64,000 nucleotides of DNA from an uncultured Tyzzerella sp. (GTDB lineage Bacteria > Bacillota > Clostridia > Lachnospirales > CAG-274), in NCBI RefSeq assembly GCF_963558545.1, contig NZ_CAUWHO010000008.1:503-64502 (forward strand), read 5' to 3'. A model generated the notes under the pieces. It saw only the letters and a program-made list of their open reading frames with translations. It did no database searches and was not told the DNA's origin. Positions 10,293 to 63,559 of this stretch are shown piece by piece; the stretch's first letter is position 1; every line of letters begins with the position of its first letter. Position numbers and translations under genes: made by a program.

Positions 10293-10742
10293 CTAAAATA
10301 ATTTATCACTATCTAAAAGTATAGTAATAGGACCATCGTTTATAAGCTCTACCTGCATATCTGCTCTAAATATACCTGTTTCTACTTTATCATAATTATT
10401 TTTAACATAATCTATAAAATCATTAAATATTTTTTCTGCATCATCTGGCTTAGCACCACCTACAAAACTAGGACGGCGTCCTTTTCTAGCATCTGCATAA
10501 ACTGTAAAATTAGGTACTATTAATAATCCTAAATTTAAATCTTTTATAGATAAATTAAGCTTATCCTCATCATCTTCAAATATTCTAATATTTATAATTT
10601 TATCACACATATACTTAAATGTTTCTACATTATCTGTGTCATTAACAGCAACAAGAGCAACTATACCTTTATCTATTTTACCTACTGTTTGTTTATTTAT
10701 ATCTACTTTTGCCTTTGTTACTCTTTGTAAAACAACTCGCAT
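10293..10742 (-). CDS. dtd: D-aminoacyl-tRNA deacylase
   Basis: 149 aa. MRVVLQRV...SFVGGAKPDDAEKIF...GPITILLDS. The relA-dtd order is conserved. Confidence 0.9.
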   Translation of the reverse strand: MRVVLQRVTKAKVDINKQTVGKIDKGIVALVAVNDTDNVETFKYMCDKIINIRIFEDDEDKLNLSIKDLNLGLLIVPNFTVYADARKGRRPSFVGGAKPDDAEKIFNDFIDYVKNNYDKVETGIFRADMQVELINDGPITILLDSDKLF

Positions 10743-16971: not shown

Positions 16972-17118
16972 ATAAAAAAGTGCAATGGAAAAATACCACT
17001 GCACATAAAATACAATTATATTCTTCCTACGCTGGCATTATCCAGTTCAGGTATAAAGGTTAGATGTATCTATTAACACCCTCTCAGCCAAGAAAACTTA
17101 GCACCCTTGAATAGTATT
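16972..17118 (-). promoter_or_regulatory. TPP (THI-box) riboswitch with terminator expression platform
   Basis: Minus strand reads AAGGGUGCUAAG...GGCUGAGAGGGUG...ACCUUUAUACCUGAACUGGAUAAUGCCAGCGUAGGAAGAAUA (aptamer about 17020-17114). It is followed by hairpin gtgcagtgg..ccattgcac plus a U-run (16972-17005). Confidence 0.9.
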
Positions 17119-24199: not shown

Positions 24200-24970
24200 T
24201 TATTTAGATATAAATAATTGTGTCCAATGGCTTGATATATGTCCAACACCAATATGAGTAAAGGACTTACTAAGTATATTTCTTTTATGTCCTTCAGAGT
24301 TCATCCAAGCATTTACAACATCTTGTGCTGTTTTTTGTCCTTTAGCAATATTTTCTCCAGCAGTTTTATATGTAATGTTAAATTGTTTTAACATATCAAA
24401 AGGCGAACCATATGTAGGAGATGTATGAGAAAAATATCCTTTATTTTTCATATCCTGAGATTTTAGTCTTGCCACGTTAGATAGTTCTGTGTCTATTTTA
24501 AGTGGTGATAAGCCAGCCTTTTTTCTTTCTGCATTAACAAGATTAACTACTTCTTGTTCTATGTTAGATACAGAGTTATTTACATTATTATTATTTTCTG
24601 TTGGTTTATTAGGTTTCTGTTGTATATTATTATTGCTATTTGTGTTATTATTATTTGTGTTATTGTTATTATTTATGTTGTTATCTTTATTGTTATTTAT
24701 ATTATTGTTTACACAATTGTTATTTGTACAATTATTACTTGTATTATTATCTACATTGCTATTTATATTGTTATTTGTGCAATTATTATTTGTATTATTA
24801 ATACTATTATTTACATTATTATTTTGTTCGTTATAGCTAAAATTCTTAATTGGTTTTCCGTTAATAGTTAAAAATTTTGAAATATCGTTATTCAGAGTGT
24901 TAGTACCTCCAAATACACTTGCTGTTGAAAATAAAGTTAAAGCAAAAGTTGTTAATAAAAATCTTTTCAT
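24200..24970 (-). CDS. Secreted CAP/SCP (YkwD-like) domain protein with Asn-rich linker
   Basis: Signal peptide, about 100 aa of N/T/C-rich low complexity, then the CAP domain (VNAERKKAGLSPL...GYFSHTSPTYG...GENIA...WMNSEGHKRNIL...HIGVG). Confidence 0.85.
   Translation of the reverse strand: MKRFLLTTFALTLFSTASVFGGTNTLNNDISKFLTINGKPIKNFSYNEQNNNVNNSINNTNNNCTNNNINSNVDNNTSNNCTNNNCVNNNINNNKDNNINNNNNTNNNNTNSNNNIQQKPNKPTENNNNVNNSVSNIEQEVVNLVNAERKKAGLSPLKIDTELSNVARLKSQDMKNKGYFSHTSPTYGSPFDMLKQFNITYKTAGENIAKGQKTAQDVVNAWMNSEGHKRNILSKSFTHIGVGHISSHWTQLFISK
24560..24840. repeat. Degenerate AAT/AAC-rich low-complexity coding repeat
   Basis: Runs of attattatt/gttattgtt units encode the poly-Asn linker. They also create the two spurious plus-strand ORFs in the track. 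Confidence 0.8.
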
Positions 24971-33988: not shown

Positions 33989-34001
33989 TTTTTATACAAA
34001 A

Positions 34002-34279
34002 AGAGCCAAGTAACATACTTGGCTCTCAGACTGTAAAAAAAAATAATATTAAAATAAATTTTTTCATTTTTATATCCTATTTATAGGATATAAAAATTTT
34101 AATCACAAGACAAGGCTTTGCCTTGGATTGTGTAAAAGCCAGATTTCTAGGTGCTTTAGCCCTTGTACGAAGAAATCGGCTTTTTTCTTACAGTATCTCA
34201 AAAAAATAAACTTGTTATTTTTTTGAAGAGGTTGTAGACAAAGTCTACAACCTCAAAGCCAAGTACAATACTTGGCTCT
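34002..34279. repeat. 278-bp hairpin-dense element, copy A (inverted relative to copy B), including duplicated flanking terminator hairpins
   Basis: It is the reverse complement of 58781-59058 end to end. The core 34027-34256 differs from core B at 18 positions by hand alignment. Flanking hairpins at 34002-34026 and 34257-34279 are near-identical direct repeats. Confidence 0.9.
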
Positions 34280-34918
34280 TTAATCTTCTATAAAGTCATT
34301 AGAATTAAATTTGTATGCTAATGTCATTAAGCTATCTGTCAAATGTACATTTTCTACTATAACTCCGTCTTTATTTGTCAGCTCTGTATTTGAAAAATTC
34401 CATATCCCTTTTATACCATAAGATACTACATTTTTATATAAATCATAAGCATTAGTACCAGGTACAGCCAAAACAGCTATATCTACAATGTTATCCTTTG
34501 TAAATTGCTCTAGCTCTATTATGTCCTTTACTTCTAAATCTCTTATTTTTGTACCTATAACATCAGAGTTTACATCAAATATACCTATAAAATTAAATCC
34601 TCTTTTTTCAAATTCAACATAGTTTAATAAAGCCTGACCTATCTTACCTGCACCTAATATAACTAAATTGTAGGTTTTATTTAATCCTAGTATTTCTTTT
34701 ATTTCTTCATATAGAAGCTCTACATTGTATCCATACCCTTGTTGTCCAAAACACCCAAAATTATTTAAATCTTGCCTTATTTGTGATGCTGTAACATTCA
34801 TCTTTTGACTTAAATCTTTAGAAGATATCCTTGTTATACCATCATCTAATAAGTTTCCTAAAAATCTGTAATATCTAGGTAAACGTTTAATCACAGCTAA
34901 AGATACTTTTTTGTCCAT
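34280..34918 (-). CDS. rex: Redox-sensing transcriptional repressor Rex
   Basis: AVIKRLPRYYRFL, SSKDLSQKMNVTASQIRQDLNNFG and the Rossmann motif ILGAGKIGQAL. Start set at ATG 34916-34918 after AAGGAG. Confidence 0.92.
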   Translation of the reverse strand: MDKKVSLAVIKRLPRYYRFLGNLLDDGITRISSKDLSQKMNVTASQIRQDLNNFGCFGQQGYGYNVELLYEEIKEILGLNKTYNLVILGAGKIGQALLNYVEFEKRGFNFIGIFDVNSDVIGTKIRDLEVKDIIELEQFTKDNIVDIAVLAVPGTNAYDLYKNVVSYGIKGIWNFSNTELTNKDGVIVENVHLTDSLMTLAYKFNSNDFIED

Positions 34919-35050: not shown

Positions 35051-36940
35051 ATGATTCTTTCTTGTAATAATATTAATAAATCATTTGGTATAACAAATAT
35101 ATTGCATAATATATCTTTTAATATAAATGAAAAAGACAGAGTTGCTTTAGTTGGTGTTAATGGAGCCGGAAAGTCAACTTTATTTAAAATAATAACAGGA
35201 GAAATATCTAAAGATAGTGGCGATATAAATATCCCAAAAAATACTAAAATTGGTTATTTCTCTCAAACACTTAATCTTAATGAAGATAACTCTCTTTTTG
35301 ATGAGCTTTTAACAGTATTTTCTAATATAATAGATATGGAATTTAAACTTAGGGAATTAGAAGAAAAAATGAGCATATCTAAAGATGATGAGCTTGACTT
35401 ATTTATTAAAGAATATGATAAAATATCTACATACCTTGCAGAAAATAACTCTTTTAACTATAATAGCCGTATTAAAGGGGTATTAAAAGGGCTTGGCTTT
35501 GTAGAAGATGATTTTTATAAACAAATAAAGTTTCTTTCTGGTGGTCAAAAAACACGTATTGCTCTTGGTAAAATATTGTTAGAAGAACCAGATATTTTAT
35601 TATTAGATGAGCCTACTAATCACCTTGATATATTATCTATTAACTGGCTAGAAAATTTCTTAAAGGCATATCCTAAAGCCCTATTTATTATATCTCACGA
35701 TAGATATTTTTTAAATAAAATAGTAACTAAAGTTATAGAGCTAGAAAACACTAAAGCAACTATATACAATGGAAACTATAACGACTACTCACAAAAAAAG
35801 CACATAGCTAGAGAAATAATGCTAAAACATTATTTAAACCAACAAAAAGAAATAAAAAAACAAGAAGAAGTTATAAAAAAACTTCGCTCTTATAATAGAG
35901 AAAAATTTATAAAACGTGCTGAAAGCCGTGAAAAGTTTTTGGATAAAATGGAAAAAATAGAAAAACCAGATAACCTACCAGCACAGATGCGTCTTAGCTT
36001 ATCCCCTAAAAAAGAAAGTGGAAACGATGTTTTAATGGTAGAAAATTTATCTAAAAGCTTTAATTTTAACCTGTTTAACAACATTTACTTTGATATAAAA
36101 AAAGGAGAAAAAGTTGCTCTTATAGGTGCTAATGGTATAGGTAAAACTACCCTTATAAAAATGATAATGGGACAAACTTCTATTGATAGTGGCTCTATAA
36201 AGCTTGGCTCAAATGTTGAAATAGGCTACTACGACCAAGAGCAGCAAAACTTAAATTTAGATAAAACTATATTTGATGAAATATCTGATACCTATCCTAA
36301 TTTAAAAAATGAAGAAATAAGAAATGCTCTTGCCGTTTTTGTATTTACAGGGGACGAAGTTTTTAAACAAATATCTACACTAAGTGGTGGAGAAAAAGGA
36401 CGTGTTGCTCTTGCTAAAATTATGCTTTCTAATGCAAATCTTCTTATATTAGACGAACCTACTAACCATCTTGATATGGTATCAAAAGAAATTTTAGAAG
36501 ATGCACTAAAAAACTATACTGGCACTTGCGTATATATATCCCACGATAGATTTTTTATAAATAATACTGCAACAAAAGTTATTGAGCTTACTAAAAATAA
36601 AATGAATGTATATCTTGGAAATTATGATTATTACCTGGAAAAATGTCAACAAAAAGATACTACAACAGAAAATATACAACCTAAAATAATATCCGATAAT
36701 AAAATGGACTGGAAAGCTCAAAAGGAAGCTCAAGCAGAAGCAAGAAAAAAACAAAACGCTATAAAAAAACTAGAAGAGCAAATAGAAATATTAGAAAATA
36801 AAATTAAACAAGCTGATGAACAGTTAACTTTAGAAGAAGTTTATACAAATCCATATAAATCTAAAGAAATCTTTGAAGAAAAAACTAAACTAGAAGACGA
36901 GCTTGTTATATTATACGATGAATGGGAAAATATGGCCTAG
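35051..36940 (+). CDS. ABC-F family ATPase (two ABC domains plus C-terminal coiled coil; Uup/YdiF-like)
   Basis: 629 aa. Two Walker A motifs (GVNGAGKST, GANGIGKTT), two LSGG signatures and no TM domain. Confidence 0.88.
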   Translation: MILSCNNINKSFGITNILHNISFNINEKDRVALVGVNGAGKSTLFKIITGEISKDSGDINIPKNTKIGYFSQTLNLNEDNSLFDELLTVFSNIIDMEFKLRELEEKMSISKDDELDLFIKEYDKISTYLAENNSFNYNSRIKGVLKGLGFVEDDFYKQIKFLSGGQKTRIALGKILLEEPDILLLDEPTNHLDILSINWLENFLKAYPKALFIISHDRYFLNKIVTKVIELENTKATIYNGNYNDYSQKKHIAREIMLKHYLNQQKEIKKQEEVIKKLRSYNREKFIKRAESREKFLDKMEKIEKPDNLPAQMRLSLSPKKESGNDVLMVENLSKSFNFNLFNNIYFDIKKGEKVALIGANGIGKTTLIKMIMGQTSIDSGSIKLGSNVEIGYYDQEQQNLNLDKTIFDEISDTYPNLKNEEIRNALAVFVFTGDEVFKQISTLSGGEKGRVALAKIMLSNANLLILDEPTNHLDMVSKEILEDALKNYTGTCVYISHDRFFINNTATKVIELTKNKMNVYLGNYDYYLEKCQQKDTTTENIQPKIISDNKMDWKAQKEAQAEARKKQNAIKKLEEQIEILENKIKQADEQLTLEEVYTNPYKSKEIFEEKTKLEDELVILYDEWENMA

Positions 36941-43550: not shown

Positions 43551-43629
43551 TGCGGACAGTGGGACTTGAACCCACACTCCTAGGAACTAGATTCTAAGTC
43601 TAGCGCGTCTGCCATTCCGCCATGTCCGC
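43551..43629 (-). tRNA. tRNA-Leu (anticodon UAG), class II with an 11-nt variable arm; CCA not encoded
   Basis: Minus strand GCGGACA TG GCGG AAUGGCAGA CGCG CUAGA CUUAGAA UCUAG UUCCUAGGAGU GUGGG UUCAAGU CCCAC UGUCCGC A. Acceptor, anticodon and T stems are all Watson-Crick. Confidence 0.9.
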
Positions 43630-57135: not shown

Positions 57136-58758
57136 ATGTTAACTGTTAATAATGTAACTTTAAGGCTTGGTAAAAGAGCTTTATTTGAAGATGTAAATAT
57201 AAAATTTACACCTGGTAACTGCTATGGGCTTATCGGTGCTAATGGTGCTGGTAAATCTACCTTTTTAAAAATATTATCAGGGCAGATAGAGTCTACATCT
57301 GGTGATGTTGTAGTAGATAAAGGAGAGCGTATATCTTTTCTACAACAAGACCATTTTAAATATGACGAATTTATTGTATTAGATACTGTTATTATGGGTA
57401 ACAAACGCCTTTATGAAATAATGAAAGAAAAAGATGCTATATATGCAAAAGAAGACTTTTCTGAAGAAGACGGCATTAAGGCTAGTGAACTTGAAGAAGA
57501 ATTTGCAGATATGGACGGTTGGAACGCTGAGCCTGATGCTGCTAACCTTTTAAATGGTCTTGGTATATCTCCAGATTTACATTATAAATATCTAAAAGAT
57601 TTAACAGGTCCTGAAAAAGTTAAAGTATTGCTTGCTCAAGCTCTTTTTGGTAAACCTGATATTTTACTACTAGATGAGCCTACAAACCATTTAGACCTTT
57701 TAGCTATAAACTGGCTTGAAGAGTTTTTAATAAATTTTGAAAATACCACAATTGTTGTATCTCACGATAGATACTTTTTAAACAAAGTTTGTACACATAT
57801 AGCCGATATAGACTATTCTAAAATACAGCTCTATGCTGGTAACTATGACTTTTGGTACGAATCTAGCCAACTTTTAATAAGACAAATGAAAGATGCTAAC
57901 CGTAAAAAAGAAGAAAAAATTAAAGAGCTTCAAGAGTTTATCCAACGTTTTAGTGCCAATGCCTCAAAATCTAAACAAGCAACATCTAGAAAAAAAGCTC
58001 TTGAAAAAATAGAATTAGATGAAATTAGACCATCTAGCAGAAAATATCCTTATATAGACTTTAAACCTAATAGAGATATAGGAAACGAAGTTTTAACAGT
58101 AACTAACCTATCTAAAACAATAGATGGTGTAAAAGTGTTAGACAATATATCTTTTATGTTATCTAGCGAAGATAAAGTTGCTTTTGTTGGCTCTAATGAA
58201 ATAGCAAAAACTACCCTATTTAAAATTTTATCAGGTGAAATAGAAGCAGATGAAGGTGAATTTAAATGGGGCATAACTACATCTTTTGCATATTTTCCTA
58301 AAGACCATAATGAAGAATTTGAAAATGACTATTCAATAGTTGATTGGCTTATGCAATATTCTCCTGAAAAAGATACTACATTTGTAAGAGGGTTTTTAGG
58401 TAGAATGTTGTTTTCTGGTGAAGAAGCCCTTAAAAAAATAAATGTATTATCTGGTGGAGAAAAGGTGCGTTGTCTTTTTTCTAAAATGATGATGTCTGGT
58501 GCTAACATACTTATGTTTGATGAACCTACTAACCATTTAGATATGGAATCTATAACAGCTCTTAATAATGCTTTAATAAAGTTTCCTGGTGTAATTTTAT
58601 TTTCATCTCAAGACCATCAAATAGTTCAAACTACTGCTAATAGAATTATGGAATTTACAGAAAATGGATTAATTGATAAAAAGACAACTTATGATGAATA
58701 CTTAGAAGAAGATAAAGATGCTTTAAAACGACAAGTTTATAACGTTGTAACAGAGTAA
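57136..58758 (+). CDS. ybiT: ABC-F family ATPase, YbiT-like
   Basis: 540 aa. The N-terminus parallels E. coli YbiT (GLIGANGAGKSTFLKILSG), with a second ABC domain. Confidence 0.85.
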   Translation: MLTVNNVTLRLGKRALFEDVNIKFTPGNCYGLIGANGAGKSTFLKILSGQIESTSGDVVVDKGERISFLQQDHFKYDEFIVLDTVIMGNKRLYEIMKEKDAIYAKEDFSEEDGIKASELEEEFADMDGWNAEPDAANLLNGLGISPDLHYKYLKDLTGPEKVKVLLAQALFGKPDILLLDEPTNHLDLLAINWLEEFLINFENTTIVVSHDRYFLNKVCTHIADIDYSKIQLYAGNYDFWYESSQLLIRQMKDANRKKEEKIKELQEFIQRFSANASKSKQATSRKKALEKIELDEIRPSSRKYPYIDFKPNRDIGNEVLTVTNLSKTIDGVKVLDNISFMLSSEDKVAFVGSNEIAKTTLFKILSGEIEADEGEFKWGITTSFAYFPKDHNEEFENDYSIVDWLMQYSPEKDTTFVRGFLGRMLFSGEEALKKINVLSGGEKVRCLFSKMMMSGANILMFDEPTNHLDMESITALNNALIKFPGVILFSSQDHQIVQTTANRIMEFTENGLIDKKTTYDEYLEEDKDALKRQVYNVVTE

Positions 58759-58780
58759 TACTTATAAATATGTAATATAA

Positions 58781-59058
58781 AAAGCTAAGTATAAAACTTA
58801 GCTTTGAGTTTGTAGACAAAGTCTACAAACTCTTCAAAAAAATAACAAGTTTATTTTTTTGAGATACTATAAGAAAAAGCCTATTTCTTCGTACAAGGGC
58901 TAAAGCCCCTAGAAATGTGGCTTTTACACAATCCAAGGCAAAGCCTCGTCTTGTGATTAAAATTTTTATACCCTATAAATAGGATATAAAAATGAAAAAA
59001 ATTTACTTTAATATTATTTTGTTTAAAGTCTAAAAGCTAAGTATAAAACTTAGCTTTT
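58781..59058. repeat. 278-bp hairpin-dense element, copy B, bracketed by a perfect 26-bp direct repeat of the terminator hairpin
   Basis: The direct repeat aaaagctaagtataaaacttagcttt occurs at 58780-58805 and 59032-59057. Core 58806-59031 is the reverse complement of 34027-34256. Confidence 0.9.
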
Positions 59059-59151
59059 TATATTATTAAAATTATAGTCTTTTTTATTAATTTTTGTACA
59101 AATAAAGTATAGATACCTACTTTAAATAATTTTTATCCAAAAGATTAATTA

Positions 59152-63309: not shown

Positions 63310-63550
63310 TTAATAATTAGACTAAAAAATCCCATTTTCCATAAAGGAAAATGGGACGTAAAATACGTGGTTCCACCCAAATTTATAGTTAAAAACTATT
63401 TCTCTAAAAGCCTTTAACGGAGCAACCCGTGCTTTATTAGAGCCAATACTCAAAGGTAGTCTTCGTTTACTTTTAGTTAAGATACTTACAGCCAATGGTA
63501 TCTCTCTCTAAAAACATCAAAATAAACTACTGTCCTTATCTCAAATTTAA
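63310..63550 (-). promoter_or_regulatory. T-box leader (Thr specifier) with terminator/antiterminator
   Basis: Minus strand has the AGAGA stem I element (63496-63506) and ACU ACC in the specifier region (about 63455). The T-box sequence AAAUUUGGGUGGAACCACG is at 63365-63383. Terminator hairpin tcccattttcc/ggaaaatggga plus U-run is at 63323-63355. Confidence 0.88.
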
Positions 63551-63559
63551 AATATACAA

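What the first reader, a model, noticed from the sequence alone, without database searches (positions are those of the whole stretch)
34002..34279. Unclassified 278-bp hairpin-dense element in two inverted copies, with pairing-preserving substitutions (copy A)
34002-34279 is the reverse complement of 58781-59058 from end to end, and both copies are 278 bp. By hand alignment the cores (34027-34256 vs 58806-59031) differ at only 18 positions: 15 substitutions and 3 one-base indels. This holds although the element is non-coding and sits in otherwise unrelated AT-rich spacers. The core is almost entirely stem-loops (copy A coordinates). These are a closing helix agactgtaa / ttacagt(at)ct (34028-34036 with 34188-34198); tatatcctat-tt-ataggatata (34071-34092); cacaa-ga-caagg ctttg ccttg-ga-ttgtg (34104-34132); aaaagcc-a-gatttct ... 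agaaatc-ggctttt (34134-34184); an all-A/T stem (34200-34224); and gaggttgtagac-aaa-gtctacaacctc (34228-34254). Differences between the copies cluster at paired positions. The 34228-34254 stem has a G-C to T-A double change. The flanking hairpins have a C-G to T-A double change. The 34142/34177 pair changes G-C to a T/G wobble pair. Two single changes (in 34071-34092 and 34104-34132) give G-U wobbles on the copy A plus strand. The loop of 34228-34254 is flipped (aaa vs ttt) relative to the rest of the element. This is the pattern expected for selection on folded RNA or single-stranded DNA, not for neutral spacer. I cannot match it to any riboswitch, sRNA, REP/BOX/MITE or IS end that I know. The window contains no transposase, integrase or reverse transcriptase.
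Basis: seen in the sequence. Interest (0 to 1): 0.85.

Follow-up and report, generated by a model that had tools for sequence, protein, structure and literature searches.

The report
Small transposon that duplicates terminator hairpins
The two inverted 278-bp copies are members of a multi-copy, protein-less mobile element of gut Clostridia that lands on transcription-terminator hairpins and duplicates the whole hairpin on insertion, a rare insertion behaviour, while carrying a conserved folded core of unknown function.

Summary
34000-34282(+) and 58778-59060(-) are 92% identical and very hairpin-rich.

Each "copy" has two parts. One is a 227-228 bp element: 34027-34254(+) and 58806-59032(-). 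The other is a direct duplication of the local terminator hairpin on both sides.

Three independent empty sites carry a single hairpin. A genome scan found at least 45 further copies in three related Clostridia genomes, plus relics in [Clostridium] colinum.

Nearly every intact copy is flanked by an abutting duplication of a different local palindrome. These are 21-41 bp long and usually start with A and end with T. All lie at gene 3' ends. The element has imperfect terminal inverted repeats of 12-20 bp and no ORF.

I read it as a non-autonomous transposon (MITE). It inserts at the feet of an extruded hairpin or cruciform. The closest known behaviours are IS1630 (IS30 family) and the hairpin-targeting IS1272.

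The transposase was not found. The interior forms five hairpins in every subfamily. It shows compensatory changes and is more conserved than the ends; its function is unknown.

A weak Rfam match to the TnpB guide-RNA motif IS605-orfB-II does not pass membership tests.

This is a new variant of a known kind, of moderate interest.

The parts
34004..34026 (+). Copy A, left copy of the duplicated target hairpin (AGCCAAGTAACATACTTGGCTCT). This is the native bidirectional terminator between the SseB-like gene and rex.
   Evidence: Direct repeat with 34257-34279, 21 of 23 identical and differing only in the loop. The related species carries one such hairpin, AAAAGCCAAGT(TTAT/ATAA)ACTTGGCTTTT, in a 44-nt rex/SseB spacer.
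34027..34254 (+). Copy A, the mobile element proper (228 bp). Parts:
- degenerate 5' terminal repeat, 34027-34038
- H1, 34066-34097
- P1, 34104-34132
- P2, 34134-34184 (terminator-like long hairpin with the conserved GCTTTAGCCCTTGT motif)
- H4, 34198-34226
- terminal hairpin H5, 34228-34254, which holds the 3' terminal repeat
   Evidence: nhmmer against the family profile gives E 2.6e-51 over model positions 1-230. Fold. Boundaries from comparison of 38 copies.
34257..34279 (+). Copy A, right copy of the duplicated target hairpin (AGCCAAGTACAATACTTGGCTCT). Two extra A (34255-34256) lie between it and the element end.
   Evidence: The terminator-like scan scores it on the + strand.
58781..58805 (-). 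Copy B, right (3'-side) copy of the duplicated target hairpin AAAGCTAAGTTTTATACTTAGCTTT.
   Evidence: Perfect 25-26 nt direct repeat with 59033-59057. The empty allele L003 has this hairpin once.
58806..59032 (-). Copy B, the mobile element proper (227 bp), in the opposite orientation to copy A.
   Evidence: nhmmer E 1.8e-51. It differs from copy A at 18 positions. It is absent, together with one hairpin copy (252 bp in all), from ENA contig k141_28404 (L003), whose flanks are otherwise identical.
59033..59057 (-). Copy B, left (5'-side) copy of the duplicated target hairpin.
   Evidence: Scored as terminator-like.

Best explanation
The element is a non-autonomous DNA transposon (MITE) of about 220-230 bp. 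It belongs to a family spread through [Clostridium] colinum-like Lachnospirales and a more GC-rich mouse-gut Clostridia isolate.

Shown:
- It is mobile and multi-copy.
- It has imperfect terminal inverted repeats. The low-GC form is 5'-CAGAYTGTAGAC...GTCTACAGCCTC-3'. The GC-rich subfamily has about 20 bp, with 16 of 20 matching.
- It encodes no protein.
- It always lies at gene 3' ends.
- It is flanked by an abutting direct duplication of a whole local palindrome, 21-41 bp and different at every site. The duplication usually runs from an A to a T at the outermost paired bases.

Inferred mechanism: a transposase supplied in trans recognises the shape of the target, not its sequence. The target would be an extruded cruciform or hairpin of an intrinsic terminator. 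[quoted passage not shown] In linear coordinates the stagger then equals the length of the palindrome, and gap repair duplicates the whole hairpin. Both neighbouring genes keep a stem-loop.

The conserved interior (H1, P1, P2, H4) is under selection for structure. My best guess has two parts. P2, with its A-tract and T-tract, is a built-in bidirectional terminator that insulates the insertion. The invariant P1-P2 sequence is a cis site or small RNA needed by the element. This last part is inference only.
For: Family and copy number:
- The genome scan found about 45 copies in three genomes. They were confirmed by blastn and nhmmer.
- Relics occur in C. colinum, and a solo 3'-end relic occurs in L047.

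Target duplication:
- About 30 of 36 complete copies have direct repeats abutting both ends with offset 0/0. Each repeat is a different hairpin.
- The 29 clean duplications span 21-41 nt, median 25. Twenty-one are centred palindromes from the outermost base. The first base is A in 26 of 29 and the last is T in 24 of 29.

Empty sites with a single hairpin:
- L003 for copy B, in the same species with identical flanks.
- L013-L022 for copy A.
- L083 against filled L047.

Other features:
- Terminal repeats.
- No conserved ORF.
- Context: 16 sites between convergent genes, 15 between tandem genes, 0 between divergent genes.
- Logan contigs break inside the element, as expected of a repeat.

Precedents:
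- IS1272 targets stem-loops of variable sequence. The published model predicts whole stem-loop duplication if attack is at the 5' feet of a cruciform (PMC5678879).

Structure conservation.
Against: - No transposase and no autonomous relative with the same ends was found. This covers 1.38 Mb of fetched loci, the window, and the plasmid, phage and viral collections.
- The enzyme class is therefore inferred from the ends and duplications only.
- The IS30-family tip motif GTAGAT(T) occurs in the element's terminal repeats, but 6 nt inside the end. That link is inconclusive.
- The interior is more conserved than the terminal repeats. This is unusual for a plain MITE and unexplained by the transposition model.
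- The sense-strand folding bias hints at a single-stranded form, which a purely double-stranded cut-and-paste model does not need.
- Cruciform versus single-stranded hairpin targets cannot be told apart from sequence.
Confidence: 0.72

Rival explanations
1. It is a protein-less derivative (PATE) of an IS200/IS605-family element. It would retain the TnpB guide-RNA (omega RNA) scaffold, be moved as single-stranded DNA by a Y1 TnpA, and have its RNA used by TnpB in trans.
For: - Rfam's best match for copy A is RF02998 IS605-orfB-II: 31.3 bits, E 0.0023, full model length.
- A diverged copy from another genome gives the same match: 30.4 bits, E 0.0025.
- The element ends in a hairpin, and the sense strand folds better than the antisense in 34 of 36 copies.
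Against: - The scores are far below the family's gathering score of 88. The match rests on the first 35 nt and a generic terminal hairpin.
- The GC-rich subfamily gives no match.
- The element has terminal inverted repeats and long target duplications. IS200/IS605 elements have neither (established knowledge).
- There is no constant motif 5' of the left end.
- Orientation shows no clear bias against GC skew (18 vs 28).
- No copy adjoins a tnpB-like ORF.
Confidence: 0.08
2. Another hairpin-specific enzyme inserts the element. Candidates are a REP-associated (RAYT-like) HUH transposase or a Cas1-like integrase. Such an enzyme would act at both ends of a palindrome, as CRISPR repeat duplication does.
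For: - Duplication of a whole 21-41 bp palindrome resembles repeat duplication by Cas1-Cas2 (established knowledge).
- The terminal repeats contain GTAG, the tetranucleotide typical of REP feet.
- The sense-strand folding bias fits a single-stranded substrate.
Against: - No such gene was seen near any copy.
- 20-bp terminal inverted repeats ending CAG...CTG are typical of DDE elements.
- Casposase duplications have a fixed length of 14-15 bp (established knowledge), whereas these track hairpin size.
Confidence: 0.12
3. It is not mobile. It would be a small-RNA gene with its own flanking terminators, copied by ordinary recombination, and the 'empty' sites would be deletions between the direct repeats.
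For: - P2 looks like an intrinsic terminator with A and T tracts.
- A 25-bp direct repeat could mediate precise deletion, so one empty allele alone (L003) is ambiguous.
Against: - About 45 copies sit at unrelated loci, each between copies of a different local hairpin.
- Single hairpins occur at orthologous sites in other species.
- Terminal inverted repeats are present.
- No conserved promoter is visible, and the orientation is random relative to neighbouring genes.
Confidence: 0.03

Closest known systems
IS1630 of Mycoplasma fermentans and relatives such as ISMhom-1 (IS30 family)
   Same: [quoted passage not shown] These repeats are terminator-like (own knowledge of the 1999 paper's abstract; the title and figures are cited in PMC3317919, PMC2853133 and PMC7648426). 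This is the same behaviour as here, where duplications are 21-41 bp.
   Different: IS1630 is a 1.4-kb autonomous IS with an IS30-type transposase and 27-bp repeats, found in Mollicutes. This element is 220-230 bp and has no ORF. It has a conserved five-hairpin interior and lives in Clostridia. No IS30-type gene was found in the DNA sampled. The IS30-like GTAGAT motif sits 6 nt inside the ends.
IS1272 (IS1182 family), 'stem-loop replacing' transposition
   Same: The target is a stem-loop structure of any sequence, often just downstream of genes. The published model includes a pathway that duplicates the whole stem-loop (PMC5678879).
   Different: IS1272 deletes the target hairpin and leaves no duplication. 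This element duplicates the hairpin in about 30 of 36 copies.
Structured bacterial MITEs such as bcr1 of the Bacillus cereus group
   Same: A small, multi-copy, intergenic, protein-less element whose secondary structure is kept by compensatory changes (PMC3184786).
   Different: bcr1 has a 5-bp duplication and a fixed target. This family duplicates whole hairpins, and its centre is more conserved than its ends.
IS605-orfB-II RNA (RF02998), a TnpB guide-RNA scaffold
   Same: Similar order of hairpins, and a shared GGAUUGU segment after the first hairpin. Weak matches of 30-31 bits.
   Different: Far below the family threshold of 88 bits. No tnpB nearby. The element has terminal repeats and target duplications. 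The GC-rich subfamily does not match.
IS1202 family
   Same: Long target duplications.
   Different: Fixed lengths of 5-6, 16-17 or 27-28 bp by subgroup (bioRxiv 10.1101/2022.12.17.520857). Here the length varies from 21 to 41 bp and equals the local palindrome.

Membership tests
MITE (non-autonomous transposon with terminal inverted repeats) | Small size and no transposase ORF | tested here: met
   219-231 bp. Only 20-37 aa ORFs with TTG starts, and these are not conserved between copies.
MITE (non-autonomous transposon with terminal inverted repeats) | Terminal inverted repeats | tested here: met
   CAGAYTGTAGAC versus the reverse complement of the 3' end, GAGGCTGTAGAC. In the GC-rich subfamily 16 of 20 positions match. 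The repeats are degenerate in the two window copies.
MITE (non-autonomous transposon with terminal inverted repeats) | Flanking target-site duplication, with empty sites | tested here: met
   Abutting direct repeats in about 30 of 36 copies. Three independent empty sites. The length is unusual at 21-41 bp.
MITE (non-autonomous transposon with terminal inverted repeats) | Many dispersed copies | tested here: met
   2 in the window and about 45 in three genomes.
MITE (non-autonomous transposon with terminal inverted repeats) | A parent IS with the same ends in the same genomes | tested here: inconclusive
   None in 1.38 Mb of loci or in the plasmid, phage and viral collections. Whole carrier genomes could not be scanned.
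IS30 family, IS1630-like | [quoted passage not shown] | tested here: met
IS30 family, IS1630-like | IS30-type DDE transposase | tested here: inconclusive
   tblastn with three IS30-family transposases found none in the window or the fetched loci. Carrier genomes were only sampled.
IS30 family, IS1630-like | Ends resembling IS30-family repeats | tested here: inconclusive
   IS30 and ISLpl1 ends begin (N)GTAGATT. The element has GTAGAY starting at position 7, not at the tip. The IS1630 ends could not be retrieved.
IS1182 family, IS1272-like | Target hairpin replaced, with no duplication | tested here: not met
   The hairpin is duplicated, not deleted.
IS200/IS605 derivative with omega RNA (RF02998) | Score at or above the Rfam gathering threshold | tested here: not met
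   31.3 and 30.4 bits against a threshold of 88. No match for the GC-rich subfamily.
IS200/IS605 derivative with omega RNA (RF02998) | No terminal inverted repeats and no target duplication; insertion 3' of a fixed short motif | tested here: not met
   Terminal repeats and 21-41 bp duplications are present. Left flanks are variable hairpins.
IS200/IS605 derivative with omega RNA (RF02998) | Strand bias relative to replication | tested here: not met
   18 versus 28 copies by the sign of local GC skew, which is a rough proxy.
IS1202 family | Fixed duplication length (5-6, 16-17 or 27-28 bp) | tested here: not met
   The length ranges from 21 to 41 bp and equals the palindrome (paper read).
REP / BIME / REPIN | A short conserved palindrome itself repeated many times | tested here: not met
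   The flanking hairpins differ at every locus. Only the four flanking hairpins of this type occur in the 64-kb window.

The most novel reading that the evidence does not exclude
The invariant P1-P2 core might be a functional RNA, or a single-stranded DNA module. It would work with a trans-encoded enzyme to direct insertion at hairpins. The element would then be a guide- or scaffold-bearing 'satellite' of an RNA-dependent transposition system, distantly related to TnpB omega RNAs, and not a passive MITE.

Four observations leave this open:
- The core is more conserved than the ends.
- Changes pass through G.U intermediates on one strand.
- The sense strand folds better than the antisense.
- There is a weak match to RF02998.
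Probability: 0.1. Interest if true: 0.85.

Novelty: new variant of a known kind. Interest (0 to 1): 0.55.

Why it matters
- Whole-hairpin target duplication has been documented for very few elements, essentially IS1630-type IS in Mollicutes. In the reviews and searches I could read, I found no MITE reported to do this.
- This family supplies about 30 clean insertion sites plus three empty sites in gut Clostridia. That is a ready data set on structure-directed (cruciform or hairpin) target choice.
- One carrier genome (B62_62_CS_H) is deposited as an isolate and not as a MAG, so experiments may be possible.
- For genome annotation, the family explains doubled terminators, assembly breaks at convergent gene pairs, and a class of 'hairpin-dense' intergenic repeats in low-GC Clostridia.
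- The element always sits in terminators and carries its own bidirectional terminator-like hairpin. It may therefore alter 3'-end formation of many genes.
- The conserved core is an unexplained candidate for a functional RNA.

Tried and rejected
- Exact 20-mer scan of species-representative genomes and of viral contigs with GCCTTGGATTGTGTAAAAGC: no hits.
- 18-mer scan of JGI metagenomes: 9 loci, all chance.
- blastn of both subfamilies against plasmids and phages: no match.
- Viral-contig scans with the P2 motif found nothing. Scans with a degenerate terminal-repeat pattern gave 45 hits at about the chance level, and none matched the family profile.
- Rfam at gathering thresholds found only a T-box, a TPP riboswitch and a tRNA elsewhere in the window.
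- Search for an autonomous copy:
  - a terminal-repeat scan of all loci;
  - a search for repeats shared between loci;
  - tblastn with IS30-family transposases.
  All were negative.
- L044 looked like an ORF running into the element. It is a YigZ-type host gene next to a 5'-truncated relic.
- A REP-like family of the flanking hairpin was rejected. Only the four flanking hairpins occur in the window.
- A promoter for a small RNA was sought. No conserved sigma-70-like site was found on either strand (and reading of A3).
- Read-through transcription as the source of an RNA was rejected as a general rule. In tandem-gene contexts 6 copies are co-oriented and 9 are anti-oriented.
- Systematic 'repair' of one duplicated hairpin copy, as a test of fold-back synthesis, showed no bias between left and right copies.
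- The GC-skew switch near 52 kb was checked as a possible origin. There is no DnaA; the genes there encode a lytic transglycosylase, RsmF and a radical SAM protein.
- The original IS1630 paper (PMC94219) is not held.

Full report
**1. The observation**

- Window 34000-34282 (+) and 58778-59060 (-) are reverse complements with 92% column identity.
- Each folds far better than shuffled sequence: -116 and -103 kcal/mol, z -14.8 and -12.3.
- Within the element proper the copies differ at 18 positions.
- Twelve of these lie at paired positions, but 71% of all positions are paired. The claimed clustering is therefore not there.
- There is one true compensatory pair (34231/34251) and two changes to G.U. 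The pair 34142/34177 is broken on the sense strand. One loop flip (AAA/TTT) is present.

**2. Anatomy**

- Each 278-bp 'copy' is composite. The outer 23-26 bp on both sides are direct, not inverted, repeats of a terminator-like hairpin.
- At copy B the two are identical: AAAGCTAAGTTTTATACTTAGCTTT.
- At copy A they differ only in the loop: AGCCAAGT-AACAT/ACAAT-ACTTGGCTCT.
- The hairpins of A and B differ from each other.
- Between the hairpins lies a 227-228 bp element: A at 34027-34254(+), B at 58806-59032(-).
- Both copies sit between convergent genes: the SseB-like gene and rex for A, an ABC-F gene and an HD-domain gene for B.

**3. Empty sites**

- ENA contig k141_28404 (L003) encodes the identical HD protein and has identical flanks. 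It lacks 252 bp and carries the hairpin once.
- In the nearest species (Rex 88% identical) the rex/SseB spacer is 44 nt. It holds one hairpin, AAAAGCCAAGT(TTAT or ATAA)ACTTGGCTTTT.
- A third pair comes from other genomes. L047 is filled, and its ortholog L083 has a single hairpin.
- Insertion therefore duplicates the whole hairpin.
- Logan contigs of the same sample end inside the element, as expected of a repeat.

**4. Family**

- Rex homologs place the organism near [Clostridium] colinum in the Lachnospirales.
- C. colinum has a 78% identical partial copy. This pinpointed a conserved 14-mer, GCTTTAGCCCTTGT.
- A scan of species-representative genomes with AAAAGC-N8-20-GCTTTAGCCCTTGT returned copies from three genomes:
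  - about 19 copies in MAG BRZ_IE bin35;
  - about 10 in MAG E16 bin148;
  - about 16 in Clostridia isolate B62_62_CS_H, which is GC-rich.
- C. colinum holds two decayed copies, and L047 holds a solo 3' end.
- The window has only the two copies.

**5. Mobile-element features**

- Across 38 delimited copies the ends read 5'-CAGAYTGTAGAC ... GGCTGTAGAC-nnn-GTCTACAGCCTC-3'.
- In the GC-rich subfamily the terminal inverted repeat is about 20 bp, with 16 of 20 matching.
- There is no conserved ORF.
- About 30 of 36 complete copies are flanked by direct repeats that abut both ends exactly.
- The 29 clean duplications are 21-41 bp, median 25, and each has a different sequence. Twenty-one are centred palindromes from their outermost bases.
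- The first base is A in 26 of 29 and the last is T in 24 of 29.
- The duplication length therefore equals the local palindrome, including paired A/T tracts.
- All insertions are at gene 3' ends: 16 between convergent genes, 15 between tandem genes, none between divergent genes.
- In tandem contexts 6 copies are co-oriented and 9 are anti-oriented with the neighbouring genes.
- Orientation shows no clear bias against GC skew (18 vs 28).

**6. Mechanism (inference)**

- Terminal inverted repeats plus a target duplication indicate double-strand insertion with staggered joints.
- A stagger that tracks palindrome length indicates recognition of an extruded cruciform or hairpin. [quoted passage not shown]
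- This is pathway b of the model drawn for IS1272 in PMC5678879. IS1272 itself takes the pathway that deletes the hairpin.
- The matching known behaviour is IS1630 (IS30 family). [quoted passage not shown] The original paper could not be fetched.
- IS30 and ISLpl1 ends begin (N)GTAGATT. The element has GTAGAY six bases inside its ends, so the family link is open.
- The IS1202 family makes long duplications of fixed length and does not fit.
- I found no transposase and no autonomous relative.

**7. The structured interior**

- All subfamilies fold into the same five hairpins: H1, P1 with a 2x2 internal loop, P2 with an inner GGGGC-UUUA-GCCC hairpin and flanking A and T tracts, H4, and the terminal H5.
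- H1, H4 and H5 have different sequences in different subfamilies.
- RNAalifold on 19 members finds 8 pairs with compensatory changes in P2 and H5.
- On the low-GC P1-P2 alignment, 96.5% of cells pair and 4 pairs are compensatory. The covariation score is 0.132 against 0.093 for shuffles (0 of 500 reach it). Slid controls pair at 59% or less.
- The sense strand is more stable than the antisense in 34 of 36 copies, by a mean of 8.7 kcal/mol. These copies are related, so they are not independent.
- The centre is more conserved than the ends.
- No conserved promoter is visible.
- Whether the active form is RNA, single-stranded DNA or a set of protein-binding palindromes is unknown.
- My working guess: P2 acts as a bidirectional terminator that insulates the insertion, and P1-P2 is also a cis site or small RNA.

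**8. The Rfam lead**

- The best Rfam match is IS605-orfB-II, a TnpB guide-RNA motif. Copy A scores 31.3 bits and a diverged copy 30.4 bits, both with E about 0.002 in searches of 350-500 nt.
- The family threshold is 88 bits.
- The GC-rich subfamily gives nothing.
- The element fails the defining features of IS200/IS605 elements, since it has both terminal repeats and duplications.
- I keep this as a low-probability rival.

**9. Verdict**

- The feature is real and the family is real.
- It is a MITE-type transposon that targets terminator hairpins and duplicates them.
- This is a new variant of a known kind. Two questions remain open: which enzyme moves it, and what the conserved core does.

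Noticed in passing
L024:10641-11340 and L029:7260-7700 (rex/SseB spacer of a related species): A different cassette occupies the same intergenic site. It carries a type-I-toxin-like small ORF (MKMIKILFFIIIIALLVIINTVTVY) with convergent promoter-like sites. One or two tandem copies occur, each bounded by direct repeats of that species' rex terminator hairpin (AAAAGGGTGTAGAAAAAATCTACACCCTT). Hairpin duplication may not be unique to this MITE.
   Followed up: partly
L013/L017 vs L014-L022 at about 10642-10668; window 34240-34242 vs 58818-58820: Loops of perfect palindromes flip between strains and between copies. The rex terminator loop reads ATAA in two strains and TTAT in eight. The element's terminal hairpin loop is AAA in some copies and TTT in others, across all low-GC subfamilies.
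   Followed up: partly
L049:141-388, L096, L036: Three copies in MAG E16 bin148 carry a 29-nt insertion in the P2 loop. The insertion adds a second GGGCTTTATGCCC mini-hairpin.
   Followed up: no
L059, L062, L044 (B62_62_CS_H): Three insertions or relics share the same target palindrome, AGACACACTC(T/C)AGAGTGTGTCT. In two of them the left copy keeps only the 3' arm. This palindrome may itself be a repeated sequence in that genome.
   Followed up: no
window 63349-63551(-), 17007-17118(-), 43551-43629(-): A T-box leader upstream of the threonyl-tRNA synthetase gene, a TPP riboswitch and a tRNA gene. All are above Rfam gathering scores.
   Followed up: no
window 24600-24850: Degenerate tandem repeats of TATTATT/TGTTATT-type units inside the ORF at 24200-24970(-). 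This is a low-complexity, probably Asn-rich, protein region.
   Followed up: no
window 35051-36940(+) and 57136-58758(+): Two paralogous ABC-F ATPase genes lie near the two element copies and account for several of the window's other direct-repeat families. The proximity looks coincidental.
   Followed up: no
L101, L103, L109 (viral contigs), positions about 56-76: The degenerate terminal-repeat pattern hit three viral contigs at almost the same distance from the contig start. The family profile did not match them. They may share a phage terminal sequence, or it may be chance.
   Followed up: no
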